From NCBI GenBank assembly GCA_964477705.1, contig CAYZFJ010000001.1:11380-75379 (forward strand): a stretch of 64,000 nucleotides of DNA, read 5' to 3'. Of this stretch, positions 15,399-64,000 are shown in pieces. The notes beneath the pieces are model-generated. The model did no database searches, was not told the origin of the DNA, and worked only from the letters and a program-made list of their open reading frames with translations. The stretch is from an uncultured Myxococcia bacterium (GTDB lineage Bacteria > Myxococcota_A > JAVEVO01 > CAYZFJ01). The translations under genes and the position numbers were made by a program. Every line of letters begins with the position of its first letter. The first letter of the stretch is position 1.

Positions 15399-15542
15399 AG
15401 CAATACCTTGGGAAAATTCATATAGCATTTCATATATATACGATTCGCTATATTTGCAAGTTGAGTTGCATAATAATATTACATTCGTCGGGCATTTGGC
15501 TGGATAACAAGGGGTAAGGGGGAGGGGCGAGGCTGCTCTGCC

Positions 15543-15660
15543 GCTGTAGGGGCACGGCATGCCGTGCCCTTCGTTAGCGGTGCACCCAACCTGCCCAAAC
15601 AATTTTGTGAAATCAAACTGCCTTAAAAGAACACGCATGTGGCATGCCGACCCCTCAAGT
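15543..15660. repeat. REP-like palindromic intergenic element, long composite copy (core GGGCACGGCATGCCGTGCCC at ~15550-15569)
   Basis: Perfect 20-nt palindrome plus conserved flank TTCGTTAGCGGTGCACCCAAC; near-identical ~110-nt copy at 45541-45690. Confidence 0.7.
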
Positions 15661-15707
15661 TGCAAAGAACAAGAGGAATATTATGATTCTTTCTACTTTC
15701 CTCCCGC

Positions 15708-41050: not shown

Positions 41051-44000
41051 TCAAGGGGCAGGACGCAATCTTGGGTAAAGTGTGTAGCCTTCTGTGTCCA
41101 TGGCGTTGCCCCTCTCGCCATAGTAACTGTTAGAGAAGTTCTGTTCCCATATGGAATTGTTGCCGATGGCAGGAGCAGCAGGGGAGGCATCGTCATTGTT
41201 TACCATGTCAGGTCGATAGTATCTGTCTACTCCGCCACCATCTATAAAGAGGGCTCTGGTGAGGTATTGTTTTCTGGTGTAATCCTGGTGTGACATGGCC
41301 ATTCCAAGGGTGGTGCTGTCTCCCATCTCGTAGGTGTCTGCTCCATCTGTATCTATGAAGAGGGAGATGGAGTTGTAACGGGAAAAGCTGGCGGCTCTGG
41401 CATTGGCCACATAGCGATCCGAGCCGGAGATGTTATATACAACAGCCGCACTGAATTCGCCCGCAGATGCCAGGTGGCTATGGTGCAGCCTGTTGACGGT
41501 TACATTGAACTGGTCGTTGCCGTCATAATCCAGGAGTACTGCCAGACTGTAGTTGTCCGCACTGGCCTGGGCGAGTGCGGAGGAGTCGTATCGGTCGTTT
41601 CCTCCATGGTCGACCAGGTTGCCCCGCCCTGCCCATTCGGCTCGACCCTGTGCTCCCACGCCGGCCCGGTAGTAATCATCACCACCACCGTCTACTAGCA
41701 AGCCCAGTCCACCAGACATGATGCCTTCTGTATAAATGTTGAACGGGGGCACTCCTGCCGCTGCTCCCTGGCACAGGTTGCGGTTGAGGGCCTGGTTCTC
41801 TGACCATGGAAAGATGACTGTGTCCCTGCCTGTGGCGGGGGCGCTGGATGGTGGTGTAGTCGGGCCTGCTGATGGGGCTGCATTCTCGTCTCCAGCTACT
41901 GCGTGGTAGGTGTCAGGACTGTCACCAAGGTTGACGACTGCGCCAAACCCCAGGGTGCCTCCGTATCCCTGACATCCGTGCCAGGCCAGCAGCTCGTCTT
42001 GCCCTGCCAGGTCGAGGAGCAGCCCGGTGCCGAACAGGGCGCTGCCCTGGCTGAAAGATTCGCTTGCGTATCGGTCGTCTCCACCGTCGTCCAGGAGGAT
42101 GCCAACTCCCAGTATTCCGAATCCCTGGGACATGCGCAGTGAGCCGTACCAGTCATCGCCGGCACCGTAGTCAGCGATGATGCCTATGCCAAGGCGCCCA
42201 GAACCCTGGCGGCCGACCTGGGAGCTGGATTGGTTGGGGCCCTGGCCGAGGGGGACGAGCTGGTCGGAGTCTGGTGGTGCTGATGAGGATGAGGATGATG
42301 CAGGGTAGCGTCCCGCTGCGTCGGGTGTGAGCAGAGATACGGGAGCGACTGGGGCGATGCTGCTTGGTCGAGCGGTCTCTGTGGTGGTTGTTGTAGGGGG
42401 AGCGGTAGCCCCAGTACCAGTGTTGACGTGAGCAGGGGCGTTGAGGGTGGGGGATGTGGGGGCGGTGTTGGTGCCGGTGTCGGTGGGTGCCTGGTACGAA
42501 TAGGTGTCGTGACCGCCCAGGTCAATGGCGATGGATATGGGGTTGGAGATTGACATGGTTGCGCCGACCGGGATCTCATACAGGTCGTCACCTCCTGTGT
42601 CGATAAGCAGCAGGATGGCTTCTTCTTCGCCTTCAGGTTTCAGTATGCCTGCTCCATTACCAGAGTTGTGGTCAGCTCCTGTTGGCTGGTGGTGATCGTC
42701 CGCACTGTCCGCTATAATGAGCCGACCCATGGGGGTGACCAAATCCAGGTAAAAACCGGTGGTGTCAGCCAGTGGTGTCCAGTCGATCTGGTCTATGGCG
42801 CTGGTTATGGTGAGGGCCGCCTGTAGCATCAGGTCATGCTTGTAGTGTCTGGAGAGGAATCCCATGACCGCCGGCGACCTGAACCAGTGGTCAGCAGGCA
42901 TACTCTTTGTGGCAAATAGTACCTCTGGTATCCGGTAGTACAGGTCATTAATGAACTGGCCGTATGTTGGCGTGATGTTGGCCGCCCCCTCCAGGGCCTG
43001 GTTTCGCAGTGTGGATGCCTGGGCAGAGGCTTTGAGCAGGTGACCAGCCGCTGCCGCAACCGGGGCTGGCAGGGATGCGACTTGGTCGAGCAGATCGTCC
43101 TGTGGTGGTGCCTGTGTGCCTGCGGCGGTATAGATTGCTTCCAGCCCGTCAATCAGGAGCAGCTTGCCTTCGCCTTCTTTGAATATGGTCGGGTCAAAGG
43201 TGAAGTCATAGGTTTGATTGGCGCCGCCGGGTTGCCAGGCGTTGGTTGCATCAGCGTAGCCTTGCTGTTCGGCAGCATGGAGCACGGCCAAGGTGAGGGG
43301 CTTGCCCGCTGGATCTCCTATGCGAGAGAGCGCCTGGCTTCTGGTTGCCCCAAGCTGGGCTCCTTGCAGGGGTAGGCGGTATTCGTCGCTGAAACCATGC
43401 ATTGTGAGAGGGTCGGCTTTTACCGCCTCTGGAACCGCCAGCAGATCTCTGGCGGCGTTGTTGCCAAACGCACATGGGGATGAGAGGAGCATCTCCCGCA
43501 GCAGGTCCCGTTGGCCTGCCGGCGGCTTTTCCATACAGGAGCAGCTGTCTGGGAGGCATACTTTGGCTGGCCAGGCGCCGTACATTGGTGTGCAGATGGA
43601 CCCTGCCCCGCATTCGGTGTCACTGTTGCAGGCATGGGAGCAGATGCCTCTGGTTTCTCCGTTCAAGGTGAACGAGAAGCAGATCCCCTCGGCACATGGG
43701 CGCTGGGCTGAGCAGGAAGCTCCTACTCCAGCTCCAACTCCAACGCCGTTTTCATCTTCAGTTTGAGTCAGGGGAGTGATAAAGCCGCACTGGTTCCATC
43801 CATACGGCTCCTCTTGTATGCAGATGCCTGTGTCTGTACTAGTCCCATTCCCATTCCCATTCCCATTACCATTCCCTGTCCCTGTCCCTGCTTCAGGATT
43901 GTCACTGCTGCTGCTTATCTGACAGTGCCTCCAGCCTTCCGGGCAGTCCCGGTCCGCAGAGCAGGGGCTGGTACACCGGCCTCCTGAAGTCGGATTGGAG

Positions 44001-45283
44001 CACACATGATTCTGGCCGCCGCATGTGTCGCCATAGGGGCCACCACACAGGGTTCCCAGGAGCCAGGTTTCGCAGCGTGCAGTGTCAGGCACACATCCAT
44101 AAAGGGTTCGAGAGTTGGGCACATCTGGCACTGTAGAGCATGAGAACCCGAGAGGGCAGGTCTGACAGCGGTTCTGGTAGCAGATGGACCCAGCCGGACA
44201 CTCTCCAGTAGTCTGGCACCCATAGCAACTGCCGCCAATGCAGCGCAGGCGACATGTTCCGTCAATGCACCGCTGCATGTATGGGCAGGAGTTGTCTGGC
44301 TGGCATGGGCCTGTAGTGGTGCAGTCATAATCGCTTGAGCAGGTGTCACACTCCCTGGAACAAAATCCGGGTTCTCCTGCTTGTCGGACTACGCACAAAT
44401 CTCGCTCTGTACCGCACTCATCGTTTGTGAGGCATGGGCCACCACAGAGAGCTTGATCAGGGAGAAGACACCGGTCACCAGTTGATGGCTGGCAAACCAT
44501 GCCATCTGGGCAGGAGGTCTCTTCGCATTGGTTGTCACAGGTGCCGGCCAGAGGGACACACCATCCTTCGGTTGCGTCGGTTGTGATGGTGGCGCAGGTG
44601 TAGTTATCGGGGCATTTTAGAAATTGGTTGCAGCCTATGGAGCAGAAGCGTTGTTCGATGGCTGGGTGGTAGAGGCAGGAGGTGTTCCCCGTGCCACACT
44701 GATGATCGGTTTTGCATGGCTGGCACAGATATTCTGCATCGGGTTTGCATTTACCACTGGTCGGGTCACAGCCGTTACCCCAGGAGCAGGCGGGCTGGCC
44801 GATGCATGGGTCATCGCATCCGGTGACAGGCGTGCAGTAGTAATCTCCCCCAGAAGAGGCCATGCATGTGGTTCCGGTCGGGCAAATGGAACCGGCGGTG
44901 CTGTCTTGGGCATGGGGAGAGCAGGGCAAGGTGCAGATGCCACTTCCTGGCTCGGTGTGGGTGGGGATGATAGCGCAGGAGAGCCCGTCTGCAGTGCAGT
45001 GGGCTTGGTCTGTCAAGGAGCATGGGGTGCAGAATGAGTCGGGAACGGTGCGGTTATCGCCACCGTCAGGCCCCGTGTCGCTGTCTGCGGCAGCATCCGG
45101 ATTGTGGGTGTTGTCTCCCGCATCATCTGCGAAGTCTGCGTCATCCTCCAGGTCTGAATCGTAAGGTTCTTGGGAATCCTGATCATCAAATAAACTGGAC
45201 GGAGAGGAGCATGCAGGCAGAGCGCCCGCAATAATCAAGGTAAACAAGATGATCGGGATGAGCAGAAACTTCACGTTTATCAA
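41051..45283 (-). CDS. Giant secreted lipoprotein (1410 aa): Cys-rich EGF-like N-terminal half, (GN)n linker, C-terminal array of hhhD-x-G-G-x-D-x-Y repeats (FG-GAP/beta-propeller-like)
   Basis: Signal peptide with lipobox LPAC; >90 Cys in first 600 aa; about 10 repeats of LLxDxGGxDxY in last 500 aa. Confidence 0.6.
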   Translation of the reverse strand: MINVKFLLIPIILFTLIIAGALPACSSPSSLFDDQDSQEPYDSDLEDDADFADDAGDNTHNPDAAADSDTGPDGGDNRTVPDSFCTPCSLTDQAHCTADGLSCAIIPTHTEPGSGICTLPCSPHAQDSTAGSICPTGTTCMASSGGDYYCTPVTGCDDPCIGQPACSWGNGCDPTSGKCKPDAEYLCQPCKTDHQCGTGNTSCLYHPAIEQRFCSIGCNQFLKCPDNYTCATITTDATEGWCVPLAGTCDNQCEETSCPDGMVCQPSTGDRCLLPDQALCGGPCLTNDECGTERDLCVVRQAGEPGFCSRECDTCSSDYDCTTTGPCQPDNSCPYMQRCIDGTCRLRCIGGSCYGCQTTGECPAGSICYQNRCQTCPLGFSCSTVPDVPNSRTLYGCVPDTARCETWLLGTLCGGPYGDTCGGQNHVCSNPTSGGRCTSPCSADRDCPEGWRHCQISSSSDNPEAGTGTGNGNGNGNGNGTSTDTGICIQEEPYGWNQCGFITPLTQTEDENGVGVGAGVGASCSAQRPCAEGICFSFTLNGETRGICSHACNSDTECGAGSICTPMYGAWPAKVCLPDSCSCMEKPPAGQRDLLREMLLSSPCAFGNNAARDLLAVPEAVKADPLTMHGFSDEYRLPLQGAQLGATRSQALSRIGDPAGKPLTLAVLHAAEQQGYADATNAWQPGGANQTYDFTFDPTIFKEGEGKLLLIDGLEAIYTAAGTQAPPQDDLLDQVASLPAPVAAAAGHLLKASAQASTLRNQALEGAANITPTYGQFINDLYYRIPEVLFATKSMPADHWFRSPAVMGFLSRHYKHDLMLQAALTITSAIDQIDWTPLADTTGFYLDLVTPMGRLIIADSADDHHQPTGADHNSGNGAGILKPEGEEEAILLLIDTGGDDLYEIPVGATMSISNPISIAIDLGGHDTYSYQAPTDTGTNTAPTSPTLNAPAHVNTGTGATAPPTTTTTETARPSSIAPVAPVSLLTPDAAGRYPASSSSSSAPPDSDQLVPLGQGPNQSSSQVGRQGSGRLGIGIIADYGAGDDWYGSLRMSQGFGILGVGILLDDGGDDRYASESFSQGSALFGTGLLLDLAGQDELLAWHGCQGYGGTLGFGAVVNLGDSPDTYHAVAGDENAAPSAGPTTPPSSAPATGRDTVIFPWSENQALNRNLCQGAAAGVPPFNIYTEGIMSGGLGLLVDGGGDDYYRAGVGAQGRAEWAGRGNLVDHGGNDRYDSSALAQASADNYSLAVLLDYDGNDQFNVTVNRLHHSHLASAGEFSAAVVYNISGSDRYVANARAASFSRYNSISLFIDTDGADTYEMGDSTTLGMAMSHQDYTRKQYLTRALFIDGGGVDRYYRPDMVNNDDASPAAPAIGNNSIWEQNFSNSYYGERGNAMDTEGYTLYPRLRPAP
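43844..43890. repeat. Hexanucleotide SSR (CCCATT)n then (CCCTGT)2 inside the giant lipoprotein gene, encoding GNGNGNGNGNG
   Basis: cccattcccattcccattcccattaccattccctgtccctgtccctg. Confidence 0.8.
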
Positions 45284-51676: not shown

Positions 51677-54600
51677 GTGAAGAATCCTGATCAATTTCGC
51701 CATACCCTATTGATTTTATTAATATTTCAATTTTCTCTACTAATCTTCTTCGGTGCTTTGGGGGGCTGTGGTGGAGATCAGAATCAGGTTGAGCTGAAAC
51801 CGGATGGAGCCATCCTAAATGGTGACGCATCGTGGGCGGCTGGGGATGCGCAATTCCAGGGTGGTTGCAGTGACGGGGAGTCTTTTTGTTTGGAGAGCGG
51901 TTGTGTCGATTTGCTCCATGACTCAGCCCATTGCGGGGAATGTGGCAATGAGTGTGATTCGGACTATGAATGTACAAATGGCTTTTGTATCTTGGCTTGC
52001 CCAGAAAACCAAGCATCTTGTGGTGATCAGTGTGTCAATCTTGCCAAGGATCTGGAACACTGCGGTGAGTGTAACAATAAATGCCCTGCAGGATACTGGT
52101 GCGAAGAAGGGGACTGTTTCTTGTTTTGTCCAGAAAACCAGACATCTTGTGGGGGGCAGTGTGTCAATCTTGCCAAGGATCCGGGACATTGTGGAGCATG
52201 CGGCATCTTTTGTAGACAGGGTCAGGTCTGCGTCAATGGTGAATGCACCTACAGTTGCCCCATTGATCAGACCGTCTGTGGCTCCCAGTGTGTGAACCTA
52301 GCCTCTGATCCCTTTAATTGTGGCCAGTGTGGGGAGGACTGCTCCGATGGAATGGTCTGCTCTGAGGGAGAATGCAATATCCATTGTGCCGTTGGCTTTC
52401 ATCAATGCGGGAGCAGTTGTGTAAACCTGCAGATTGATCGCAAACACTGTGGTGAGTGTAATGGAAAGTGTCCACCCGGTGGGCTTTGTTCTGGTGGTGA
52501 ATGCATAGTGAGTTGTCAACTCGGACTCACCGACTGTAATGGCAGTTGCGTTGATTTGCTGGATGATCGAGCTAATTGCGGGGTTTGTGACCATGCTTGT
52601 GAGGGGGGTATGGTCTGTGACAATGGGGAATGTGCATTGGATTGCCCTACACCCACAGAAGAGTGTGCCGACACGTGCGTTAATACCAATTCGGACCGTT
52701 TTCACTGTGGCCAGTGTAGTCTTGAGTGTCCGCCGGGAATGGTCTGTGACAGCGGCCAATGTACCCTCATCTGCTCATTGGACCTTACCGATTGTGAAGG
52801 TAGCTGTGTGGATCTGATGACTGATTTCAGTCACTGTGGCCAGTGTGATCTCCAGTGTTCCCAGAATCAAGAATGCAGTGATGGCTCTTGTAATTGTCGG
52901 GAAGGCTTTGTGGAATGTGACAAGGTTTGTGTCGACCTGAAAACGGATTTGGACCACTGTGGCCAGTGTGACGTCCTGTGCGAGGTTGGGTCAGAATGTA
53001 TGGCTGGGCTCTGCATAGTTCCGGTGGTTGGTGTCTCTCTGGATGCCATCCTGCTGGATTTGGCTACAGGAGCCACCCAACAACTGCTAGCTACAGTTAT
53101 CCCCGCTCAGGCAACCAACAAGGCCCTCATCTGGTCCTCCAGCCATCCCCAGATCGCCACCATTGACGAGAATGGAGTGGTGGAGGGGATCAGTCCTGGT
53201 CAGGCTCAGATCAGCGTGCAGACCGTGGATGGAGGGTACTTCGCTACCTGCATGGTCAACGTGAAGATATTGGTGAGTGGAGTAGATATTTCCCTGGCAG
53301 AATTACTGCTCAGCCCGGGCCAGACCACCCACCTCCATGCTGCCGTGAAGCCTGCCACCGCCTGCAACCAATCTCTTACCTGGCAGAGCAGCAACAGCCA
53401 GGTGGCAACTGTGGACGGGAACGGCGTGGTCACTGCCAAGGCTGATGGTCAGGCATCAGTCACGGTCACCACCGTTGATGGAGGTTTCCAGGCATCGTGT
53501 CTGGTCACAGTGGTAACAATCCAAGTTACAGGGGTGGTGCTGATGCCCGGTGAGATTCATGTCGGCCGGGGGGCGGAATATGCACTGACAGCGGTAGTGA
53601 GCCCCGCCGATGCCTCTAACAAGACTGTGGTCTGGTACAGCAGCAACCCTGCCGTGGCCAGTATCAGCCAGGATGGAGTGGTGACTGGAGTGGAGAAAGG
53701 GTCGGCCACTATTATGGTGATCACTGGTGATGGCGGATTCCATGATACTGGCACGGTCCATGTGCAGATATCTGTAGAGAGGGTAGATCTCTACTTGGAC
53801 GCTTTGTACATGGAGCAGGGTGATTATGGGACCATTTTTTTTAGAATTTTCCCGGATGATGCTACCAATAAGACGGTCATCTGGGAATCCAGTGATCCAT
53901 CCATCGCTACTATTACAGACTCTGGCATAGTCACTGCCTGCAATGTGGGAGTCACCACAATCACTGTGACCAGCGTGGATGGCAGTCACACGGATTCACT
54001 CCAAATGTTTGTATGGCTTTAATCTGCGGGAAATTACCATAGACCCGTCATCAGCCACATTGGAGGTGGGTCAGACCATTACCCTGGTGCCTGTCTTCGA
54101 TCCGTCTGACATCCTGAACCAAAGCGTGAGTTGGAGCACCAGTGACCCTGCGGTGGCAAAGGTCGATTCAGAGGGGGTGGTGACGGGTCATGCTGTAGGT
54201 CAGGCCACTATCACTGCGCTCAAGCCGGGCACGGGAGTGAGTGGCTCCTGCAAGGTACATGTGTTCACCCGGGTTACTGGTGTTACCATCACCCCGAAGA
54301 CGCTGGAGTTGACCTTGGGGCAATCGGCATCCATGACTGCCACTGTGATACCGCCTGATGCACGTGTCAGGGATGTAGTGTGGACCAGCCACAATGATCA
54401 GATCGCCATGGTGAGCAGTGATGGTTTGGTTACCGGAGTGGGCATGGGGAGAACCCGAATCACTGTTGCCACCGTAGACGGGGCGTTGTCTGACAGTGCG
54501 GACGTGGAGGTGATAATCATTCCGGTGGAGGGGGTGACCATCACTCCCACTTCGCTGAACCTGCATGTAGGTAGTGCCGGGCAGTTAAGCGCCACCATCA

Positions 54601-55800
54601 TTCCGGCTGACGCCACCGATCAGTCGGTCACCTGGGCGACTGGAATCCTGCAGTTGCCACTGTTGATGCCAACGGACTGGTCACTGGACTGGGTGTTGGT
54701 ACGACTACCATCTCTGCCACCTCCCATGATGGAAATTCAGTGGCTGTCGCCATGTTCCAAGTAAGCGCCCTGGTTGAGAGTGTGTCTGTCAGCCCAACTG
54801 AGGCTTATGTTCTGATTAATCAATCAACCCAGTTGACCGCCACGGTGTTGCCTGCCAATGCCAATAACAAGGCGGTAACCTGGTCATCGTCTGCCAATTC
54901 CGTAGCCATGGTCAATGCTTCCGGCCTGGTGACCGGGGTGGGTCTTGGCAATGCCACTGTTACAGTGAAAACGGTGGATGGTCATTTTGTCGCTACAGCT
55001 TCAGTACGAGTAATCAGCATTCCGGCAGGGTATACGTTGATTCCTTCCGGTGCTTTCACCATGGGCAGCCCGCCCGATGAACCGTTTTGGTATTATGATG
55101 AAACCCAGCATCAGGTGACCCTTACAGTCCCTTTCCTGATGAAGATTACAGAGGTAACCCAGGGAGAATGGCAGACCATAATGGGTTATAATCCATCAGC
55201 ATTACAGTCGTGTGGCTCCAATTGCCCTGTGGAGCAGGTTTATTGGCATGAAGCGTTGGCCTATGCCAATGCACTGTCCGCTGCTGAGGAGTTGCCCCAA
55301 TGTTTCACCTGTACGTGGAGTGATGACAGAGCGAACTGTAGCCTCAAGTTGCAATATGGCAAACCTTATGACTGCCCAGGCTATCGGCTGCCCACGGAGG
55401 TAGAGTGGGAGTATGCTGCCCGGGTTGGTACACCACCACAGCCATCCATACTGGACCGATAACCAGTCAGGCGTCATGTCCCAACATGAATGCTGCAGGG
55501 TGGTATTATTACAATTCAGGTGGTACCACTCATACTGTAGGGAGTAAAGCAGCCAATGCCTGGGGCCTGTATGACATGCATGGCAACGTGTGGGAGTGGA
55601 CCTGGGATTGGTATCAGTTCGACTTGGGCAGCATGGCAGTGACAGACCCTTATGGCCCATCAATGGGCGAACTCCGGGTTGCGCGGGGCGGTTCGTATCG
55701 CGAGAGCGGAGGTTACTGCCGGGCAGCGTTTTGCGGCCCCAGCAATCCTGATGAACGCGACATTTCCGTAGGTTTCCGCCTCGCCCGGTCTGTATTGTAG
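51677..55800 (+). pseudogene. Disrupted gene for a large secreted protein: ~12 tandem 38-aa Cys-rich repeats + multiple Big_2 Ig-like domains + C-terminal FGE-sulfatase (SUMF1-like) domain; reading frame broken at ~54010-54030, ~54640 and ~55420-55470
   Basis: Four consecutive ORFs (51677-54022, 53979-54764, 54740-55462, 55405-55800) whose translations continue the same domain series across frame changes. Confidence 0.5.
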
Positions 55801-56388
55801 TTATCCTTTGTAGGTTGGGCATTGGAGCGTAATGAATGGCGGTGCTGTCTGTCAGCGCAACCTGCACTTTTCTCGATGATGGTCCGACACTACCGAACCT
55901 CCCGTGGAAATACGACCTCCCCTCGAAGTTGAGTTGTTGCTTCTTCATGTGCTGATGCCCTCCATCCTCAGTGAAGCTGTCTGGTCGGCTGGCTGCTCGC
56001 CTTGGCGTTGGCCTTCATGTTTCTGAACGCTTGGTCAGGGTAGCGGTATTTCTCCGTTTTGGCATACAGAGAGTGTTGACTCTACCGTCAGCCACATCCA
56101 CATAACGCCATGGAATCATGTTGGCGGGCGCTAGGCCAGAAGCAGTGCACCCCACGATGGTGCGGATTCCCATATGTTGTCTGCCTAGTTGCCTGCAACA
56201 GAGGAACAGGAGGTCGCAAAGCAACACAGCAGCACAAGGACACGCCAAGGCGATAGCACGGCAAGGTGACATAGCGGCGAGGCTGCAAGACAACAAGATG
56301 ACTGAGCAGCGGGGCGCAGGTGACGGAGGGATAGGGCGACAGAGCAAGATAACAGTGTGACACAACCGAAAGATGGCGGGAAGAGACA

Positions 56389-58965
56389 ATGGCCAATTTC
56401 AAGTATGTCAAATGGTTCGAGAATGTGGGTAATGAAGATGTACCGACAGTGGGCGGGAAAAATGCTTCCCTGGGCGAAATGATTCAGCACCTGCGCACCG
56501 AGAATATCCGGGTGCCCGGGGGATTCGCCACTACCTCCGACGCCTACTGGACCTACCTGGCCTACAACAACCTCACGGGAAAGATGGGCGACATCCTCGC
56601 CTCAATGCGGGAAAACCGCACCTCTCTGAACAGGGCCGGCGAAGAGGTGAGGCAGGCTATTCGCCATGGAATCTTCCCGGAAGAGGTTGAGACCGAAATT
56701 CACGACGCATACAGGGAACTTTCCCGCAGGTATGAGCAGGAGGACCTTGCCGTTGCCGTCAGGAGCAGCGCCACTGCAGAAGACCTTCCAAGCGCCAGCT
56801 TCGCCGGTCAGCAGGAGACCTTCCTCAATGTGCGGGGTGCAGCGGATCTGCTGGCAGCTTGCAGGGACTGCTACGCCTTCCTCTTTACCGACCGGGCAAT
56901 CGTCTACAGGGAGCGGCTTGGCTATGATCACATGAAGGTGGCCTTGTCTGTGGGTGTGCAGAAAATGGTCCGCTCCGATAAAGCGGGAGCGGGCGTCATG
57001 TTCTCACTGGACACGGATACCGGATTCCCTGATGTGGTGGTGATCAATGCTTCGGTTGGGCTTGGTGAAACGGTTGTTCAGGGCGCTGTCACGCCTGACG
57101 AGTACCGTGTGTTCAAACCTAGGCTCGGAATAGGTGTCCCTCCGAGGGAAAAGGCAGCCGCAAGAGAAGGCGGGAGAGTTGGGGCAACACCGGGAGGCGT
57201 ATCAGGAAGCACATCAAGAACAGCCGCCAGAGCAGAAGCTGCCGGAGCAGAGATGGCAGCCCGGGGCACGCCTGCTACTCCTGTGGCCACCCGTGGCGCA
57301 GCAGCAGAAGCAGAAGCGAGCTCCACCCGATACAGGCCGATCATTGAAAAACGGCTGGGCGTCAAGGAGAAGATGATTGTCTATGCCGAAGGAGGCAAGA
57401 ATCGCACCAAGACCATCGACACCCCTGCTGTACAGCGGAAGCAGTTCGTCCTGTCGGATGACGAGATTATCACCCTCGCACGCTGGGCAACCGCCATCGA
57501 GCGACACTATGGTCGGCCGATGGATATGGAGTGGGCCAAGGATGGTGACTCGGGAGAGCTCTATTGTGTGCAGGCTCGACCCGAGACGGTTTTTTCGCAG
57601 AAGAAGACTCATGCCTTGAAGACATACCATCTGGACCCAACCGGTCATACCCCAATCCTGACAGGCGTGGCGGTCGGCGAGTCGATTGCGGCGGGGCGGG
57701 TGAAAGTCCTGCACCGCCCTGAACAGATGCATCTCTTCCAGGATGGCGAAATCCTTGTCACGGAGCGGACTGATCCCGACTGGGGGGAGATCATGAAGAA
57801 GGCGGTAGCCATCATCACCGACCATGGGGGAAGGACCAGCCATGCCGCAATCGTCAGCAGGGAGCTGGGCATACCGGCGGTGGTGGGGACCGGGAATGCC
57901 ACCATCACCCTGCGTGATGGGCAGGAGATAACCCTGAGTTGCGCCGAGGGGGAGGAAGGACGCATCTATGAGGGTCATCTCCAGTACGAGGAACATGAAC
58001 TGGATACCTCCACACTGCCCAGACCTCCAGTCCAGTTCATGATCAACCTGGCCACCCCACAGGCTTTGTTCCGGTGGTGGCAGCTCCCGGTGAATGGCGT
58101 GGGCCTGGCGAGGATGGAATTCATCATCAATAACTGGATCAAGATCCACCCGCTCGCCCTGGCCAGGTTCAATCAGTTGCGGGATGACAATACCAATGCC
58201 AGAGCGCAGATTGAACAACTCACAGAAGGCTATGGAGACAAGACGGAATTTTTTGTCGACAAGCTCTCCATGGGTATTTCCATGATCGCCGCATCGCAGT
58301 ACCCCGACCCCGTGATTGTGCGGACGAGCGATTTCAAGACCAACGAGTACGCCAAGCTGATTGGTGGCGCCCAATTCGAGCCCCATGAGGAGAACCCGAT
58401 GCTGGGGTTCAGGGGCGCATCCAGGTACTACAGCGACCGCTACAGAGACGGATTCGCCCTGGAATGCAGGGCGGTGAGGAAAGCACGTGATGTAATCGGG
58501 CTCGACAACATCGTGGTCATGATTCCCTTTGTCCGCACCGTCGGCGAAGCGGACCAGGTGTTGCAGGAGATGGCCGTTCACGGCCTTCAGCGCGGCCAGG
58601 ATGGTCTCCAGGTCTACATGATGTGCGAGGTGCCCTCCAACGTTTTCCTTGCCCGGGAATTCGCCGACCGCTTTGACGGATTTTCCATCGGGAGCAACGA
58701 TCTCACCCAACTCATCCTGGGGGTGGATCGGGACTCCGAGACATTGCGGTCACTATTCGATGAACAGAATGAGGCGGTGAAGATTGCCATCAGCCAGGTG
58801 ATACAGAGTGCCCACGAGAAGGGCGTAAAGGTGGGGCTGTGCGGGCAGGCTCCCAGCGATTACCCCGACTTCGCCCACTTCCTGGTAGATGAGCATATAG
58901 ATTCAATCTCCCTCAACCCGGACAGCGTCCTCCCACTACTTCAGGGTTGGGGGAAGAGAGGTTGA
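56389..58965 (+). CDS. ppsA: Phosphoenolpyruvate synthase with ~70-aa Ala/Gly/Arg-rich insertion
   Basis: MANFKYVKWFENVG...GGKNASLGEM N-terminus; TDHGGRTSHAAIVSRELGIPAVVG phosphohistidine domain; C-terminal TIM-barrel motifs. Confidence 0.85.
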   Translation: MANFKYVKWFENVGNEDVPTVGGKNASLGEMIQHLRTENIRVPGGFATTSDAYWTYLAYNNLTGKMGDILASMRENRTSLNRAGEEVRQAIRHGIFPEEVETEIHDAYRELSRRYEQEDLAVAVRSSATAEDLPSASFAGQQETFLNVRGAADLLAACRDCYAFLFTDRAIVYRERLGYDHMKVALSVGVQKMVRSDKAGAGVMFSLDTDTGFPDVVVINASVGLGETVVQGAVTPDEYRVFKPRLGIGVPPREKAAAREGGRVGATPGGVSGSTSRTAARAEAAGAEMAARGTPATPVATRGAAAEAEASSTRYRPIIEKRLGVKEKMIVYAEGGKNRTKTIDTPAVQRKQFVLSDDEIITLARWATAIERHYGRPMDMEWAKDGDSGELYCVQARPETVFSQKKTHALKTYHLDPTGHTPILTGVAVGESIAAGRVKVLHRPEQMHLFQDGEILVTERTDPDWGEIMKKAVAIITDHGGRTSHAAIVSRELGIPAVVGTGNATITLRDGQEITLSCAEGEEGRIYEGHLQYEEHELDTSTLPRPPVQFMINLATPQALFRWWQLPVNGVGLARMEFIINNWIKIHPLALARFNQLRDDNTNARAQIEQLTEGYGDKTEFFVDKLSMGISMIAASQYPDPVIVRTSDFKTNEYAKLIGGAQFEPHEENPMLGFRGASRYYSDRYRDGFALECRAVRKARDVIGLDNIVVMIPFVRTVGEADQVLQEMAVHGLQRGQDGLQVYMMCEVPSNVFLAREFADRFDGFSIGSNDLTQLILGVDRDSETLRSLFDEQNEAVKIAISQVIQSAHEKGVKVGLCGQAPSDYPDFAHFLVDEHIDSISLNPDSVLPLLQGWGKRG

Positions 58966-59298: not shown

Positions 59299-59499
59299 AT
59301 GATGGACAAGTCACTTCTTGATGCCGGCTGCCGTGTTGCGTTTGCTGCACTGCTGCATGATCAAGGTAAATTTGCTGAACGGGCAGGTATGCCCAACTCC
59401 TGCAAAGTCAGGGCTCTAGGGCTAATAAACGGGAGCAAAGGGCAGCGATTTAGCGCTTGTTGGCTCAAGGGTAATACGACCGAAGAGCAGACCACATGA
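59299..59499 (+). pseudogene. 66-aa ORF carrying a Cas10/Cas3-type HD-domain N-terminal motif (AALLHDQGKFAERAG); probable truncated HD nuclease remnant or mini-protein; stop overlaps cas6 start (ATGA)
   Basis: LLHDxGKF is the start of the HD motif of Cas10/Cas3 HD domains; ORF ends after 66 aa; GGGGGA RBS. Confidence 0.3.
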
Positions 59500-60611
59500 A
59501 CCATTCTCTGAGTCTAATCAGCAATGATGCCAACATTCAGGCACAGGCTGCATCCCTCCTGGACCTGTCATCCAGCTTAACTTTGGGCAGGATCACTTTT
59601 ACCTTCTGTTCCGAGGATAATACTCGGCTTCCCCCTTTTCTTGGCTCTACCCTGAGGGGAGCTCTCGGTGGTGCCCTGCGCTCCATTGCCTGTGTGCGTG
59701 AGAGAGGTACCAACTGCCTCACTTGTGCCTTGTGTGAGGGGTGTGCCTATGCCTATCTGTTTGAAACTCCTGTCCCCTCAGCGGCCAACCGTCTGCGCCG
59801 TTTGCAGCATCTGCCTCATCCATTCATTATTGAGCCGCCTCCTCTCCAGCCAGGCGGGCTGAATCTTGAGCCTGGCTCCCTGCTCACCTTTTCTATGGTC
59901 CTGATAGGTAAAGCTACCACCTACCTCCCATATGTCCTGTTGGCAGCGTCCCGTATGGGGGCAGCCGGGTTGGGTGCCGAGCGTGCCGTCTTCCAGTTGA
60001 TAAAGGCTGAATCGGATTTGCCAGGATGGCTGATGGATGCAGTGGAAAGCGGTGAGAGCCAGAGAGACGACAGCGAACTGGCGGTTCAAGCCGCCCCGTC
60101 GTCTCTGCTCCTCTGGACGCCGGATTCAGCCGCTATCAATGGGCTCCCCAAGGTGACCCCATCCGGGCTGCAAAAGGTTCTGTCCATGCAACCAACTGAG
60201 GCAGGTGCCGCTGGCGAGCGAGTTCAGGTTGAGTTTACCACCCCTGTCAGGCTCGTTGAGCAGGGCCGAGTTGTCAGCAATCTGGAATTTAGAGTATTTA
60301 TCCGGTCTTTGCTAAGTCGTGTCTCTTCTTTGGCCATCTTCCATTGTGGGCAAGATGAACAGGATTTGGACTACCGGAGCTTGGTTGATGCTGCTGATAT
60401 GGTCAATGAGACAGAGCAAGATCTCTCCATTCGACCTCTCCAGCGGTGGAGTCAGCGTCAACAGCGGACTATTGGCCTTGATGGCCTCCTGGGAGGGGTT
60501 GCCTGGAGAGGAGAGATCATGCCGCTCCTGCTGCCCTTGATTAGAATTGGCCAGATTGTTCATGTGGGTAAAGGGACCGTCTTTGGCCTCGGCCGTTATC
60601 GCCTCTTGTAG
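59496..60611 (+). CDS. cas6: Cas6-like RAMP endoribonuclease with Zn-finger-like cysteines
   Basis: C-terminal glycine-rich loop VHVGKGTVFGLGRYRLL (G-x-G-x5-G-x-G); CLTCALCEGC cysteine cluster; adjacent to cas1. Confidence 0.5.
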   Translation: MNHSLSLISNDANIQAQAASLLDLSSSLTLGRITFTFCSEDNTRLPPFLGSTLRGALGGALRSIACVRERGTNCLTCALCEGCAYAYLFETPVPSAANRLRRLQHLPHPFIIEPPPLQPGGLNLEPGSLLTFSMVLIGKATTYLPYVLLAASRMGAAGLGAERAVFQLIKAESDLPGWLMDAVESGESQRDDSELAVQAAPSSLLLWTPDSAAINGLPKVTPSGLQKVLSMQPTEAGAAGERVQVEFTTPVRLVEQGRVVSNLEFRVFIRSLLSRVSSLAIFHCGQDEQDLDYRSLVDAADMVNETEQDLSIRPLQRWSQRQQRTIGLDGLLGGVAWRGEIMPLLLPLIRIGQIVHVGKGTVFGLGRYRLL

Positions 60612-60725
60612 AAAAGCAACCAGGTACAGAGGCGATCACAACCGCTCGATAGGTGCACGCACATTACGTTGTATTCTCTGACGAGCAATTCGCACACACC
60701 ATGGCAACATTTCGGGAGGTAGTTC

Positions 60726-63323
60726 ATGGATAAACTGGAGAAGCCCCCACTCGATACATCCTCTTTCGCCGAGTCCGCCCCTTTACCATCACCACCAGGG
60801 CTGCCCGAACAGCTTAAAATCCTGATGAGGGATGGGCTCTTTGACCAGGCCGCAGACCTGCTTCAGGCAACCGACACTAAAGCAGAGATAGACGCGCCCC
60901 TCCACCACCAATTGGCCGTCCTGGCCGAAGAGTTGGGCGTCCTGGACAAGGCGGTGCTTGAGTATAATCTCTCACTGCGTGATGTGCCTGAACAACCCGC
61001 TGTTCTTCTGCGTCTTGCTCGATTACGTCGTGACCAGGGCGATGGGGATAGAGCACTGAGGGCCTATGGAAGATTGCTTCAGCTTGAGCCAGAAAATGTA
61101 CAAGCACGCATAGAGGCTGCCGACGTCTTGGTCGAGCTTGGCAGGTATGGTGAGTCGGCCAACCTCTTGCGTGTTGGCCTTGCTTATTCGGAGAATGTGC
61201 AGTTAAAGACTGCCCTGCGGCGCCTGAACATTGTTGATGGAAGTAGGGTAAGGTCTGCGACTGCTTGTGGGTTCTCAGATGCTGGTACAGGAGATGATTA
61301 TGACGGCACCAGTACCAGCGCTGACCCAAACAGTGATTATAGCGACAATAGTGGTAATGACGAGAAGCGAATGGGCGATGGTGCGGTTCTGGGGTTGGGC
61401 ACAGGAGTGGAGGCTGGGCCTAAGGCTGGGCCTAACGCTGTACCAGTAATTGGGTCTGACTGGGGGGCAAATCAGGAAACAGGGAGGGTGGATCCAGGCG
61501 CAAACCGTGGCAGTCTTGCTTTGCGGTCTGATTGCCTGGTACCTGATGATGTGGATTTAGTTGTGTTTTCTTCTCTGTTTGCGGGTCGAGAAGGCTTTTA
61601 TGCCAGACAGTGGGCAAGCGCATCTGGTAAACACGGTTATACGCCAATAGCAGAGCCATTCACTCCTCACGTTGCCCGTGGCCACCTGCTTGGCAATCAT
61701 ACGATTGGCATTTATCCGGTTCGGATGGATCATTCTGCTCTGTTTCTCGCTTTTGATATTGATATTGCCAAGTTTGCTTTGGGAAGGTGGAACGGTGCTG
61801 GCAGCGTTGTTGGCAGCGGTGTTGGTGAGGGTAAGAGTGGGGCGTCTGGAGGTCGTGCTGCCTTGCCCGGCCATCCTATGTTGCGTCTCGCACATCAGGT
61901 CGCTGTTGGTCTGGTGAGGGCAGCGGCATCCCTTGGTGTCCCAGCCTATCTTGAAGACTCTGGCAGCAAAGGCCGCCATGTCTGGATCTTCTTTGAGACT
62001 CCCATACCGGCAGTTGCAGCCAGAAGAATTGGCAATGCAATTATCGCAGGCTCCCCCGTGGCATGTCCCCCGGAAATTACTATTGAGGTGTTCCCCAAAC
62101 AGAATCGGGTGGATAAGGATGGTGGTCTTGGCAACCTGATTAAGCTGCCCCTCGGTATTCACCTTGTTTCAGGAAGTCGCAGCCTGTTTCTGGATGAAGG
62201 TGGCAGGCCGGTTCGAGAGCAATTAGCCTACATCCGCTCGATAAAGCGCCTCTCACGGGTGGCTGTGGCAGACTTGCTCCGTGGGCTATCTGTGGTTGAT
62301 GATCCTCTCGTCACAAGAGGGAGCGGGGGACACATGCCCAGGCAAGGGCAGCTGGCAAGTCGCCAATCAGTAAATATAAAGAGCAGTCGTGGTTATGAAG
62401 TAGCAGGGCTGGCTGATGAGATGGGGGTTTGCCCTGGTGTGGTTGATGAGGTTGATGATTTACCTGAGCTTGATGAGCTTGATGAGCTTTGTGGAAGCTA
62501 CTCGGAGGCAGGCAATCGGGCCCATGGTGGTGCAGCGGCGGGGAGTGGACTTAGGCCCGGTTCTAGGCCCGGGTCTGCACAATATGTGGGCCCATTAGGT
62601 GCTGCCGGACCTGAGGTGCCACAGTACAACCTTGATGCCGATGAAGAGTTTCTATGGCTTACCCAAAAATGCCCGGTTATTGCCCAGATTGTGCGCCGGG
62701 TGCGAGAGGACAGGATTCTGCCCAACTCCCATCGCCTGATTGTTACCTATACTGTGGGGCATCTCCCAACCGGGCCCCAGGCAGTGAACACCATATTATC
62801 GTTTGCCCTCAATACGGATCGATCCTTGTTCCTTAAGTCTACGCTTAAGGGTAATCCCATGAGTTGTCCCAAGATCCGTTCTCATCTATCAGATTTGGCA
62901 AGCGCAGTGGAATGTAATTGTCGTTTTAATATGAGAGATGGCATGTATCCCACTCCTCTTTTGCATCTACAGTCGTTGAGATTGAGCGGAACCATAGGAG
63001 CTAGCCCGGGAGAGCTTGGCATGTTGCAGGTGGAACGAATGGTGTCTGATCTTTTCCGGCTTCGTGGCGAAATTGAGCGCAGCGAGAGATTGGCAAGGCA
63101 GATTGAGTCCCGGCTACTTGAGGTGATGAATGAGCACCAAGTGCGGGAATTGAGCGTGCCATCGGGGATTCTGCGGCTGCAGCCTGCTTCGGGCGGCCAG
63201 GAACATGACGAGCTTGTATTGGGACTGCCGGGTGAGAGTGTGTGTATGGCTGGTGGGGGGAGCATGGTTGTAGGGACGGGCGTAGGAGAAGATGTGGCAG
63301 CGACCACAAAAGAAACCAGATAA
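60726..63323 (+). CDS. TPR-repeat + primase-polymerase (archaeo-eukaryotic primase superfamily, CAPP-like) protein with C-terminal Cys/His-containing domain
   Basis: AEP motifs: FLAFDIDI (DxD), SGSKGRHVWIFF (sGxGxH), NLIKLPLGIHLVSGSR (motif III); N-terminal ~200 aa TPR-like helical repeats; GGGAGG RBS. Confidence 0.6.
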   Translation: MDKLEKPPLDTSSFAESAPLPSPPGLPEQLKILMRDGLFDQAADLLQATDTKAEIDAPLHHQLAVLAEELGVLDKAVLEYNLSLRDVPEQPAVLLRLARLRRDQGDGDRALRAYGRLLQLEPENVQARIEAADVLVELGRYGESANLLRVGLAYSENVQLKTALRRLNIVDGSRVRSATACGFSDAGTGDDYDGTSTSADPNSDYSDNSGNDEKRMGDGAVLGLGTGVEAGPKAGPNAVPVIGSDWGANQETGRVDPGANRGSLALRSDCLVPDDVDLVVFSSLFAGREGFYARQWASASGKHGYTPIAEPFTPHVARGHLLGNHTIGIYPVRMDHSALFLAFDIDIAKFALGRWNGAGSVVGSGVGEGKSGASGGRAALPGHPMLRLAHQVAVGLVRAAASLGVPAYLEDSGSKGRHVWIFFETPIPAVAARRIGNAIIAGSPVACPPEITIEVFPKQNRVDKDGGLGNLIKLPLGIHLVSGSRSLFLDEGGRPVREQLAYIRSIKRLSRVAVADLLRGLSVVDDPLVTRGSGGHMPRQGQLASRQSVNIKSSRGYEVAGLADEMGVCPGVVDEVDDLPELDELDELCGSYSEAGNRAHGGAAAGSGLRPGSRPGSAQYVGPLGAAGPEVPQYNLDADEEFLWLTQKCPVIAQIVRRVREDRILPNSHRLIVTYTVGHLPTGPQAVNTILSFALNTDRSLFLKSTLKGNPMSCPKIRSHLSDLASAVECNCRFNMRDGMYPTPLLHLQSLRLSGTIGASPGELGMLQVERMVSDLFRLRGEIERSERLARQIESRLLEVMNEHQVRELSVPSGILRLQPASGGQEHDELVLGLPGESVCMAGGGSMVVGTGVGEDVAATTKETR

Positions 63324-63343
63324 GCACTGATAAGCACCAAACA

Positions 63344-64000
63344 ATGTCTTCAATTCTTTATGTAACTGAACAGGGGAGTGAACTCGGCATACAGCGTACC
63401 CGTCTGGAGGTCAGGAAGGGTGGACGTGTGCTGAACTCCGTGCGTTTTGAAGATCTTGGTCAAGTAGTCTTGTGCGGCAATGTACAGCTCTCCATTCAGG
63501 CAATACGCTCTCTGCTGCGTAATGGAATCGACACGGTGTTTCTTACAATGGGGGGCTCGTTTCTAGGCAGGCTCTCAGGACCGATGGGCAAGAATGTGGA
63601 GCTGCGTCACCTTCAGCACCAGCTCCTTGATGATCCTGAACAGACCCTTGAGATCGCCAGGCGAATGGTAGCAGGCAAGCTGGCTAATTCGGTTGCTTTG
63701 CTCCGTCGTTATCAAAGGAGCAGACAAGATGACCGGATTGCCCGACCCATGGTAGCTATCAGATTGCTCGGAGAGAGATTAGCCGAGGTAGATAACCTTG
63801 ATGCCCTGAGAGGGATGGAAGGCAAAGCCGCTGCCGACTATTTCAGTGCCTTTCCTGCATTGCTCATGGCCCCGGGAATGGATTTCGTCAAGCGGGTAAG
63901 AAGGCCGCCGCCTGATCCGGTCAATATTCTTTTGTCTCTCGGGTACACAATGCTTGGAAACCTGGTGCAGGGGATGGTTGAGCTGGCAGGCTTGGACCCA
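63344..64000 (+). CDS. cas1: CRISPR-associated endonuclease Cas1, 3' truncated by window edge
   Basis: MSSILYVTEQGSELG N-terminus; RVRRPPPDPVNILLSLGYTML conserved Cas1 segment; 20 nt after Prim-Pol gene. Confidence 0.8.
   Translation, partial: MSSILYVTEQGSELGIQRTRLEVRKGGRVLNSVRFEDLGQVVLCGNVQLSIQAIRSLLRNGIDTVFLTMGGSFLGRLSGPMGKNVELRHLQHQLLDDPEQTLEIARRMVAGKLANSVALLRRYQRSRQDDRIARPMVAIRLLGERLAEVDNLDALRGMEGKAAADYFSAFPALLMAPGMDFVKRVRRPPPDPVNILLSLGYTMLGNLVQGMVELAGLDP

What the first reader, a model, noticed from the sequence alone, without database searches (positions are those of the whole stretch)
51677..55800. Large secreted-protein gene (Cys-rich repeats + Big_2 + FGE-sulfatase domain) broken by at least three frameshifts
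Translation across four consecutive ORFs gives one continuous domain series, but the frame changes near 54010-54030, ~54640 and twice within 55420-55470. At ~54640 a W-S-S-S-N-P-A-V-A Big_2 consensus is readable only after a 1-nt shift. Neighbouring genes such as rpoB/rpoC (4 kb each) are intact, so a globally error-prone assembly is unlikely. Explanations are a real pseudogene, repeat-driven misassembly, or programmed/phase-variable slippage. An FGE-type (formylglycine-generating/sulfatase-modifying) domain fused to an adhesin-like Cys-repeat/Ig array is unusual in itself.
Basis: seen in the sequence. Interest (0 to 1): 0.6.

Follow-up and report, generated by a model that had tools for sequence, protein, structure and literature searches.

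The report
Frameshift-broken surface lipoprotein gene
One 4.1-kb gene for a large cell-surface lipoprotein (cysteine-rich repeats, eight Ig-like domains, a lectin-like tip) is cut into four pieces by three small insertions or deletions, most likely a recent pseudogene, and both the gene family and the breakage are ordinary.

Summary
Four consecutive + strand ORFs (51677-55800) are one gene. Intact homologues (52-53% identity) align colinearly and change frame exactly three times: 54020 (+1 nt), 54642-54643 (-1 nt) and 55430-55434 (most simply +2 nt). A fourth shift is not needed.

The repaired product has 1373 aa: a lipoprotein signal, nine 43-aa MXAN_6577-like Cys repeats, eight Big_2 domains, and a C-terminal FGE-sulfatase-type C-type-lectin domain. 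That domain's closest solved relative is TvpA, the Treponema DGR variable protein. It is not a true formylglycine-generating enzyme, because one catalytic Cys is Glu. The domain combination recurs intact elsewhere, so the fusion is not unusual.

Some related loci are genuine DGR targets. This window has no template repeat and no reverse transcriptase.

- **Repeat-driven misassembly:** not supported. No DNA repeats lie at the junctions.
- **Homopolymer read error:** not supported. A T8 run, four G6 runs and 134 runs of 5 nt or more in other genes are all in frame.
- **Programmed slippage:** not supported. Two junctions have no slippery motif.

The other 39 genes are intact. The best reading is a recent real pseudogene, possibly leaving a 781-aa truncated lipoprotein (about 0.55). 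A local assembly or consensus error (about 0.3) cannot be excluded without reads. No close relative exists to compare. Interest is low.

The parts
51677..55800 (+). One disrupted gene, read as four ORFs in the sequence as given. The repaired product is a 1373-aa lipoprotein.
   Evidence: ORFs; continuous Pfam domain series; colinear tblastn of intact homologues with three frame switches; reconstruction.
51677..51769 (+). GTG start, hydrophobic signal peptide and lipobox A-L-G-G-C (Cys31 codon at 51767-51769). AAGG lies 7 nt upstream of the start.
   Evidence: Sequence. The lipobox fits the PROSITE PS51257 pattern (established knowledge). P0001 and P0002 also carry a ...G-C lipobox.
51860..53020 (+). 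Nine tandem 43-aa cysteine-rich repeats (72 Cys), MXAN_6577-like / Stig1-like.
   Evidence: NF041328, 292.9 bits against a cutoff of 100; PF04885, 9 stretches; [HN]CGxC motif with a 43-aa period; 129-nt DNA periodicity at 62-84% identity.
53021..55018 (+). Eight Big_2 Ig-like domains with a period of 83-84 aa. Number 4 ends at J1, and number 7 is split by J2.
   Evidence: PF02368 hits, 4+3+1; domain starts at aa 449, 532, 616, 699, 782, 865, 949 and 1032.
55019..55800 (+). C-terminal FGE-sulfatase-type C-type-lectin domain (aa 1115-1373) plus the stop codon. It is split by J3.
   Evidence: PF03781 halves in ORF3 and ORF4. PDB hits: TvpA 2Y3C at E 6.8e-32, PvdO at 7e-16, human FGE at 3e-15.
54017..54023 (+). 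J1 (CTT TAA T): one extra nucleotide, most simply a T in the T-run. It moves the frame from 2 to 0 and itself creates the TAA stop of ORF1. It lies exactly at the boundary between Big_2 numbers 4 and 5.
   Evidence: In one search, P0002 residue 626 maps to a codon ending at 54019 and residue 628 to one starting at 54024, which leaves 4 nt for one residue. The repaired 'FVWLNLREITID' matches 'SVWVPLIGITLV' of P0001.
54639..54646 (+). J2 (ACT GG- AAT): one missing nucleotide, moving the frame from 0 to 2, inside the conserved W-x-S-x-N-x-x-V-A motif of Big_2 number 7.
   Evidence: In one search, P0001 residue 832 maps to a codon ending at 54641 and residue 834 to one starting at 54644, which leaves 2 nt for one residue.
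55427..55437 (+). J3 (GGTAC[AC]CACC): the frame moves from 2 to 1. The most parsimonious cause is a 2-nt AC/CA duplication. A 1-nt deletion plus one extra residue is the alternative.
   Evidence: In one search, P0002 residue 1013 maps to a codon ending at 55429 and residue 1015 to one starting at 55435, which leaves 5 nt for one residue. The repaired '[13 protein letters not shown]' matches 'AARVGTTTAFHTG' of P0005.
55684..55788 (+). The stretch equivalent to the DGR variable region of related proteins (RGGSY...GFRLAR). No cognate template repeat is present in the window.
   Evidence: Codon listing and VR/TR pairs of L010, L014, L045, L056 and L073. blastn of 55400-55830 against the window finds only itself.
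53835..53842 (+). T8 homopolymer inside ORF1, in frame. It serves as an internal control against homopolymer-type read error or phase variation.

Best explanation
The region is one gene for a roughly 1373-aa surface lipoprotein. Its parts are a lipobox, nine disulfide-rich MXAN_6577-like repeats, a stalk of eight Big_2 Ig-like domains, and a C-terminal FGE-sulfatase-type C-type-lectin head. By analogy with TvpA, invasin and intimin, the head is a ligand-binding tip rather than an enzyme.

In this genome the gene carries three small indels: +1 at 54020, -1 at 54642-54643, and +2 (or -1) at 55430-55434. I take these to be genuine, recent mutations. The first one creates a TAA stop exactly at a domain boundary. 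This truncates the product to a 781-aa lipoprotein that lacks four Big_2 domains and the lectin head. The downstream part, no longer translated, then picked up two more indels neutrally.

- **Shown:** the gene's unity, the positions and sizes of the shifts, the domain identities, and the intactness of the neighbouring genes.
- **Inferred:** that the indels exist in the cells rather than only in the assembly, the order of events, and the binding function.
For: - **Gene unity and shift positions:**
- **Clustering:** three indels in this gene and none in 39 other genes covering 50.7 kb (p = 4e-4 to 6e-3). Relaxed selection after a first hit predicts this. A uniform error process does not.
- **Not homopolymer error:** the junctions are not at homopolymers. 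The gene's T8 run, four G6 runs, and 134 runs of 5 nt or more in other genes are all in frame.
- **J3 mutation type:** it is best explained by a 2-nt tandem duplication, a replication-slippage type of mutation.
- **No repeats or close paralogues:** no DNA repeats at the junctions and no close paralogue of the FGE domain.
- **Low base rate:** 78 of 79 FGE-domain copies in related MAG loci are single-frame.
- **Stable truncated product:** J1 sits exactly at a Big_2 boundary, so the 781-aa product would be built from whole domains.
- **Function by homology:** the best solved relative is TvpA at E 6.8e-32. TvpA has no FGE activity and is thought to bind ligands (PMC5758913).
Against: - No reads and no close relative are available. 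The nearest rpoB is only 72-74% identical, every window protein looked up has no full-length relative at 90% identity, and two metagenome scans found nothing. The reality of the indels is therefore untested.
- The repaired frames contain no stop codon in about 590 downstream codons.
- The FGE domain deviates at only 1 of 29 columns that are at least 95% conserved (R to C, FGE-domain position 241). This is ordinary among 76 homologues. There is no independent sign of decay, which fits an intact gene with assembly errors equally well.
- All three lesions lie in the 3' 43% of the gene.
Confidence: 0.55

Rival explanations
1. The gene is intact in the organism. The three indels are local assembly or consensus artefacts of a metagenome-assembled contig, for example strain heterogeneity or low coverage over a variable surface-protein gene.
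For: - The repaired reading frame is clean. It has no stops and ordinary conservation at invariant FGE columns. Identity to P0001 and P0002 is as high downstream of the shifts (53-64%) as upstream (49-55%).
- The source is a single 75.8-kb NCBI contig from a lineage with no close relatives, so it is probably a MAG.
- Surface-protein genes are typical sites of strain heterogeneity (general knowledge).
Against: - The other 50.7 kb of coding sequence shows no frameshift.
- The junctions are not at homopolymers, and the T8 and G6 runs are in frame.
- There are no DNA repeats at the junctions and no near-identical paralogue.
- Only 1 of 79 related FGE copies in other MAGs is frame-split.
- A 2-nt duplication is an unusual read or consensus error.
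Confidence: 0.3
2. Programmed recoding or phase variation: the ribosome or RNA polymerase slips at the three sites, or simple repeats switch the gene on and off, so that full-length protein is made conditionally.
For: J1 reads CUU UAA U. This resembles the prfB +1 site CUU UGA C, and a +1 slip there gives exactly the homology-supported sequence WL|NLREITID.
Against: - A T inserted before AAT automatically creates CTT TAA T, so the resemblance is expected by chance.
- There is no Shine-Dalgarno-like element 3 nt upstream of J1; the sequence there is GTATGG.
- J2 (ACT GGA ATC) and J3 (GGT ACA CCA CCA) have no X XXY YYZ heptamer and no homopolymer.
- The intact homologues need no shift.
- The only long tract, T8 at 53835, is in frame.
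- Three different recoding events in one gene would be unprecedented.
Confidence: 0.03
3. The gene is a remote or orphaned target of a diversity-generating retroelement located elsewhere in the genome, and the damage is linked to error-prone retrohoming.
For: - The closest solved relative is the DGR variable protein TvpA.
- Five related loci have textbook VR/TR pairs with 15-18 adenine-specific mismatches at the same C-terminal stretch.
- 10 of 12 variable-position codons in 55696-55767 are NNC or NNT, as expected for AAY-templated codons.
- Remote targets, and frameshifting indels between TR and VR, are documented (PMC5758913).
Against: - No template-repeat copy of 55400-55830 is present anywhere in the 64-kb window.
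- No reverse transcriptase appears among the window's ORFs.
- Most related loci have no detected TR either: 72 of 77, though many of these contigs are short.
- Two variable-position codons are GAG and GAA, which AAY mutagenesis cannot produce.
- All three frameshifts lie 250-1670 nt upstream of the VR-equivalent stretch, outside any retrohoming tract.
- P0002 is identical in three independent assemblies.
Confidence: 0.07
4. These are four genuinely separate small genes (an operon of fragments), not one gene.
For: The protein collection holds ORF2, ORF3 and ORF4 as separately called proteins.
Against: - Big_2 number 7 and the FGE domain are each split in mid-domain between ORFs.
- ORFs 2-4 have no signal peptide.
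- Single intact homologues cover all four ORFs colinearly.
Confidence: 0.01

Closest known systems
Uncharacterised Myxococcota/Bradymonadia-type lipoproteins P0001 (1129 aa), P0002 (1135 aa) and P0005 (891 aa)
   Same: They share the same three-part architecture (Stig1/MXAN_6577-like Cys repeats, Big_2 array, C-terminal FGE-sulfatase domain) and an N-terminal lipobox. Identity is 52-53% overall and 63-68% in the FGE domain, and the alignment is colinear.
   Different: They are intact single ORFs. P0002 is identical in three independent assemblies. They have fewer Cys repeats and, in P0001 and P0002, 7 Big_2 domains where the window gene has 8. Synteny is unknown, so orthology is not shown.
TvpA, Treponema denticola variable protein (PDB 2Y3C), a DGR target with an FGE-type C-type-lectin fold
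   Same: It is the best solved-structure match of the C-terminal domain: E 6.8e-32 over query residues 33-258. Both are lipoproteins. The C-terminal RGGS...C...GFRLA scaffold is the same as in DGR variable regions.
   Different: No template repeat and no reverse transcriptase are present in the window. TvpA lacks the Cys-repeat and Big_2 stalk.
Formylglycine-generating enzyme (human SUMF1/FGE and bacterial FGEs), PvdO, EgtB, GldK/PorK
   Same: The domain belongs to the same Pfam FGE-sulfatase family (PF03781) and fold class.
   Different: Similarity is much weaker, about 1e-15. The residue equivalent to catalytic Cys336 is Glu (alignment). All NCBIfam equivalog scores are far below their cutoffs: GldK 82 against 350, PvdO 73 against 500, EgtB 58 against 360.
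Invasin/intimin-type adhesins (a rod of Ig-like domains capped by a C-type-lectin-like tip)
   Same: The overall design is the same: a tandem array of bacterial Ig-like domains ending in a lectin-fold head. There are weak Pfam hits to Invasin_D4 and to Ig_Eae on homologues.
   Different: The anchoring differs: a lipobox here, against a beta-barrel in those adhesins. The lectin subclass also differs. This is an analogy of design, not demonstrated homology of the head.

Membership tests
Pfam FGE-sulfatase (PF03781) superfamily / C-type-lectin fold | A significant full-length match to the family profile | tested here: met
   ORF3 matches profile positions 6-126 (73.6 bits) and ORF4 matches 160-255 (80.8 bits), against a cutoff of 23.3. 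More than 6900 database relatives have E <= 1e-20.
Formylglycine-generating enzyme (catalytic FGE) | The catalytic, copper-binding cysteine pair (human Cys336 and Cys341) | tested here: not met
   In the HMMER alignment to 2AFT, Glu aligns with position 336 and Cys with position 341. The numbering of human FGE is taken from memory of the literature.
GldK/PorK, PvdO, EgtB, SenA equivalogs | NCBIfam score above the curated cutoff | tested here: not met
   Scores against cutoffs: 82.3 vs 350, 72.7 vs 500, 58.5 vs 360, and 40.5 vs 420.
DGR variable (target) protein | A C-terminal CLec/FGE-type domain homologous to known variable proteins | tested here: met
   TvpA 2Y3C is the top PDB hit at E 6.8e-32. 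Relatives in L010, L014, L045, L056 and L073 carry true variable regions.
DGR variable (target) protein | A cognate template repeat that differs from the VR almost only at adenines | tested here: not met
   blastn (word size 7, E <= 10) of 55400-55830 against the whole window finds no second copy. The rest of the genome is not available.
DGR variable (target) protein | A DGR reverse transcriptase (with or without Avd) nearby | tested here: not met
   No RVT domain was found in any of the gene-like ORFs of the window that were scanned. The PrimPol at 60726-63323 is CRISPR-associated, not an RT.
MXAN_6577-like cysteine-rich protein (NF041328) / Stig1-like repeats | Score above the curated cutoff | tested here: met
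   292.9 bits against a cutoff of 100, in 4 stretches. PF04885 scores 181.7 bits in 9 stretches.
Bacterial lipoprotein | A signal peptide ending in a lipobox [LVI][ASTVI][GAS]C / PS51257 | tested here: met
   The N-terminus reads ...LLIFFGALGG-C31. This was pattern matching by eye, and no predictor was run.
Programmed +1 frameshift site of the prfB type | CUU-stop shifty site plus an upstream Shine-Dalgarno-like stimulator, conserved in homologues | tested here: not met
   CUU UAA U is present at J1, but there is no SD-like element upstream, and the homologues are in frame there.
Phase-variable contingency locus | A simple-sequence repeat or long homopolymer at the site of frame change | tested here: not met
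   The junction contexts are a T3 run, GGAAT, and ACACCACC. TRF finds no array there. The T8 tract lies elsewhere and is in frame.

The most novel reading that the evidence does not exclude
J1 (CUU UAA U at a domain boundary) could be a genuine shift-prone stop of the RF2 type. It would let the cell make both a 781-aa stalk-only lipoprotein and longer forms. In that reading the locus is a regulated or recoded surface protein carrying an orphaned DGR-type variable head, rather than a dead gene. The evidence disfavours this but cannot strictly exclude it without reads or expression data.
Probability: 0.03. Interest if true: 0.6.

Novelty: new member of a known kind. Interest (0 to 1): 0.15.

Why it matters
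The finding matters little beyond annotation. It shows that four hypothetical ORFs, three of which the protein collection holds as separately called proteins, should be merged into one frameshifted pseudogene or suspect gene. It also shows that the 'FGE-sulfatase' label here denotes a TvpA-like lectin-fold binding head, not a sulfatase-maturing enzyme.

If the indels are real, the locus is a snapshot of very recent loss of the binding tip of an adhesin-like lipoprotein, in a deep-branching Myxococcota-like lineage with no sequenced close relatives. If they are artefacts, the locus flags a local quality problem in an otherwise clean contig.

Tried and rejected
- **Close orthologues or the source genome:** none are available.
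  - The search for related loci on genome contigs returned nothing above 53% identity.
  - Exact look-ups show that the window proteins have no full-length relative at 90% identity.
  - The look-up of encoding contigs failed for P0001, P0005 and the window proteins.
  - Two gapped exact-pattern scans of metagenome contigs, across J3 and J2, found nothing.
- **Repeat-driven misassembly:** rejected, because no DNA repeats lie at the junctions.
- **A DGR in cis:** rejected for this window.
- **Detecting relaxed selection:** I counted deviations at invariant FGE columns against 76 homologues. The result was uninformative, with 1 of 29 deviating, which is ordinary.
- **Other broken genes in the window:** none found, using a codon-usage gene map and Pfam.
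rejected, because one shift explains the alignment.
- **Structure prediction:** not run.
Full report
**Observation.** The + strand between 51677 and 55800 carries four consecutive, slightly overlapping ORFs:
- 51677-54022 (781 aa, frame 2)
- 53979-54764 (261 aa, frame 0)
- 54740-55462 (240 aa, frame 2)
- 55405-55800 (131 aa, frame 1)

Pfam shows that they form one domain series. The first ORF has Stig1-like Cys repeats and four Big_2 domains. The second has three Big_2 domains. The third has one Big_2 domain plus FGE-sulfatase profile positions 6-126. The fourth has FGE-sulfatase positions 160-255. One Big_2 domain and the FGE domain are therefore cut in mid-domain.

A search with the conceptually repaired protein found intact homologues with the same architecture: P0001 (1129 aa), P0002 (1135 aa) and P0005 (891 aa), at 52-53% identity. 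Their tblastn alignments to the window are colinear and switch frame exactly three times.

**The three junctions.**
- **J1:** P0002 residue 626 ends at 54019 and residue 628 starts at 54024. That leaves 4 nt for one residue, so there is one extra nucleotide. Removing one T from CTT-T-AAT gives ...FVWLNLREITID..., which matches ...SVWVPLIGITLV... in P0001. The extra T itself creates the TAA that ends ORF1.
- **J2:** 2 nt (54642-54643) stand for one residue, so one nucleotide is missing.
- **J3:** 5 nt (55430-55434) stand for one residue. Removing a 2-nt AC/CA duplication gives [13 protein letters not shown], against AARVGTTTAFHTG in P0005. The alternative is a 1-nt deletion plus one extra residue.

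**What the gene encodes.** The repaired product has 1373 aa:
- A signal peptide with the lipobox ALGG-C31.
- Nine 43-aa cysteine-rich repeats at aa 62-448. NCBIfam NF041328 (MXAN_6577-like) scores 293 bits against a cutoff of 100.
- Eight Big_2 domains with a regular 83-84-aa period, at aa 449-1114.
- An FGE-sulfatase-type domain at aa 1115-1373.

The closest solved relative of the last domain is TvpA (2Y3C, E 6.8e-32). TvpA is the Treponema denticola DGR variable protein with an FGE-type C-type-lectin fold. True FGEs, PvdO and PorK match only at about 1e-13 to 1e-16. In the alignment to human FGE, Glu occupies the position of catalytic Cys336. All NCBIfam equivalogs (GldK, PvdO, EgtB, SenA) score far below their cutoffs. 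So the domain is a lectin-fold module, not a sulfatase-maturing enzyme. TvpA itself has no FGE activity and is thought to bind ligands (PMC5758913).

The overall design is a lipid anchor, a disulfide-rich region, an Ig-domain stalk and a lectin-fold tip. This is the classical adhesin or receptor-binding layout. It recurs in P0001, P0002 and P0005, and partly in P0012 and P0081. The fusion is therefore not unusual.

**DGR lead.** Because of the TvpA hit, I looked for a diversity-generating retroelement. Five of 77 related loci have textbook VR/TR pairs at the same C-terminal stretch, with 15-18 mismatches almost all at template adenines: L010, L014, L045, L056 and L073.

In the window the equivalent stretch is 55684-55788. 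Most of its variable-position codons have the NNC/NNT form, but two are GAG and GAA, which AAY mutagenesis cannot produce. No second copy of 55400-55830 exists anywhere in the 64 kb. No ORF scanned has a reverse-transcriptase domain. I therefore do not file the gene as a DGR target. A remote DGR elsewhere in the genome cannot be excluded. All three frameshifts lie upstream of the VR-equivalent stretch, so retrohoming does not explain them.

**Real or artefact?** No reads are available and no close relatives exist:
- The nearest rpoB is 72-74% identical, from Myxococcota, Polyangia or 'Deltaproteobacteria' MAGs.
- Every window protein looked up has no full-length relative at 90% identity, and all come from one 75,783-bp NCBI contig.
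- The genome is absent from the genome collection.
- Two metagenome scans across J3 and J2 found nothing.

The circumstantial evidence favours real mutations:
- **Clustering.** The other 39 gene-like ORFs (50.7 kb) are intact with full-length domain matches. All three indels falling in this 4.1-kb gene has p = 4e-4 under a uniform model, or 6e-3 for the second and third joining the first.
- **Homopolymers.** The junctions are not at homopolymers. A T8 run (53835-53842) and four G6 runs inside the gene, and 134 runs of 5 nt or more in other genes, are all in frame.
- **Repeats.** The only DNA-level repeats lie in the Cys-repeat region, 51986-52980. None occur in the Big_2 array or at the junctions. 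No paralogue of the FGE domain above 65% identity is known.
- **Base rate.** Only 1 of 79 FGE-domain copies in related MAG loci is frame-split.
- **Mutation type.** J3 looks like a 2-nt tandem duplication.

A pseudogene explains the clustering naturally. After the first hit, later indels are neutral.

There is no independent sign of decay, however. The repaired frames contain no stops. The FGE domain deviates at only one of 29 columns that are at least 95% conserved (R to C at a 99%-conserved Arg, FGE-domain position 241). This is ordinary among 76 homologues. Inactivation would therefore be very recent, at roughly 1-2% neutral divergence by a rough indel-to-substitution argument, which is inference. 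A local consensus error remains a serious rival.

**Programmed recoding.** J1 reads CUU UAA U, which resembles the prfB +1 site. Inserting a T before AAT produces that string automatically. No SD-like stimulator precedes it. The homologues are in frame there. J2 and J3 have neither a slippery heptamer nor a homopolymer. I give this about 3%.

**Verdict.** The most likely reading (about 0.55) is a recently inactivated gene. Its first lesion sits exactly at the boundary between Big_2 numbers 4 and 5. It may leave a 781-aa truncated lipoprotein made of whole domains, while the distal stalk and lectin head decay. An assembly artefact has about 0.3, a remote-DGR link about 0.07, and recoding about 0.03. 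The gene is a new member of a known, very large family. Interest is low.

Noticed in passing
window 59496-64000 (+): This is a CRISPR adaptation/processing module: Cas6 (59496-60611), then an 865-aa TPR + archaeo-eukaryotic primase protein (60726-63323), then Cas1 (from about 63350 to the window end). The primase protein matches PADLOC 'PrimPol, adaptation polymerase' at 271 bits and Pfam AEP-TOTE. This is a CRISPR-associated primase-polymerase arrangement. No CRISPR array was seen inside the window.
   Followed up: partly
window 56389-58965 (+), insert at about aa 250-315: The PEP synthase/PPDK-like gene downstream of the finding carries a roughly 65-aa Ala/Arg/Gly/Thr-rich low-complexity insert (REKAAAREGGRVGATPGG...AEAEASSTRY) that splits its PPDK_N domain into two stretches. 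The insert coincides with a locally purine-skewed stretch and a long antisense shadow ORF, 57214-58710.
   Followed up: no
window 41051-45283 (-): A 1410-aa ORF with coding-like codon usage has no Pfam or PADLOC match at all.
   Followed up: no
window 12415-15096 (-): An 893-aa fusion protein combines a pyridine-nucleotide-disulfide oxidoreductase with rhodanese, TusA and DsrE-like domains. An ArsR-type regulator lies next to it at 15093-15665, which suggests a sulfur-trafficking module.
   Followed up: no
L010 3603-3733 / 5939-6066; L014 5261-5373 / 1371-1483; L045 6265-6390 / 6899-7024; L056 339-472 / 2584-2717; L073 7161-7316 and 14193-14347 / 7760-7915: Clear DGR variable-region/template-repeat pairs occur in loci that encode relatives of the FGE-type domain. 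Of 15-19 mismatches per pair, 15-18 are at template adenines. L073 has two VRs for one TR.
   Followed up: partly
protein P0005 (891 aa), C-terminal ~35 residues: This homologue leaves the family consensus after ...RGGSWSNYARCC and ends in unrelated sequence (WAAGAGLHMVSGHG...). It looks like a frameshift inside its own VR-equivalent stretch. Its DNA could not be fetched.
   Followed up: partly
L076 205-901: This is the only related locus, of 79 FGE-domain copies, whose FGE domain is split between two frames. The two tblastn pieces are 17 nt apart.
   Followed up: no
window 53835-53842: A T8 homopolymer lies inside the Big_2 number 4 coding sequence (..TIFFRIF..), in frame. It is a potential slippage hotspot that is not the cause of the observed breaks.
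   Followed up: yes
window 10992-12116 (+): A 374-aa ORF without a Pfam or PADLOC match shares a 90% cluster with 54-aa protein fragments from Logan/ENA assemblies, one of them on a 3.39-Mb contig. It is the only window protein looked up that was not a singleton.
   Followed up: no
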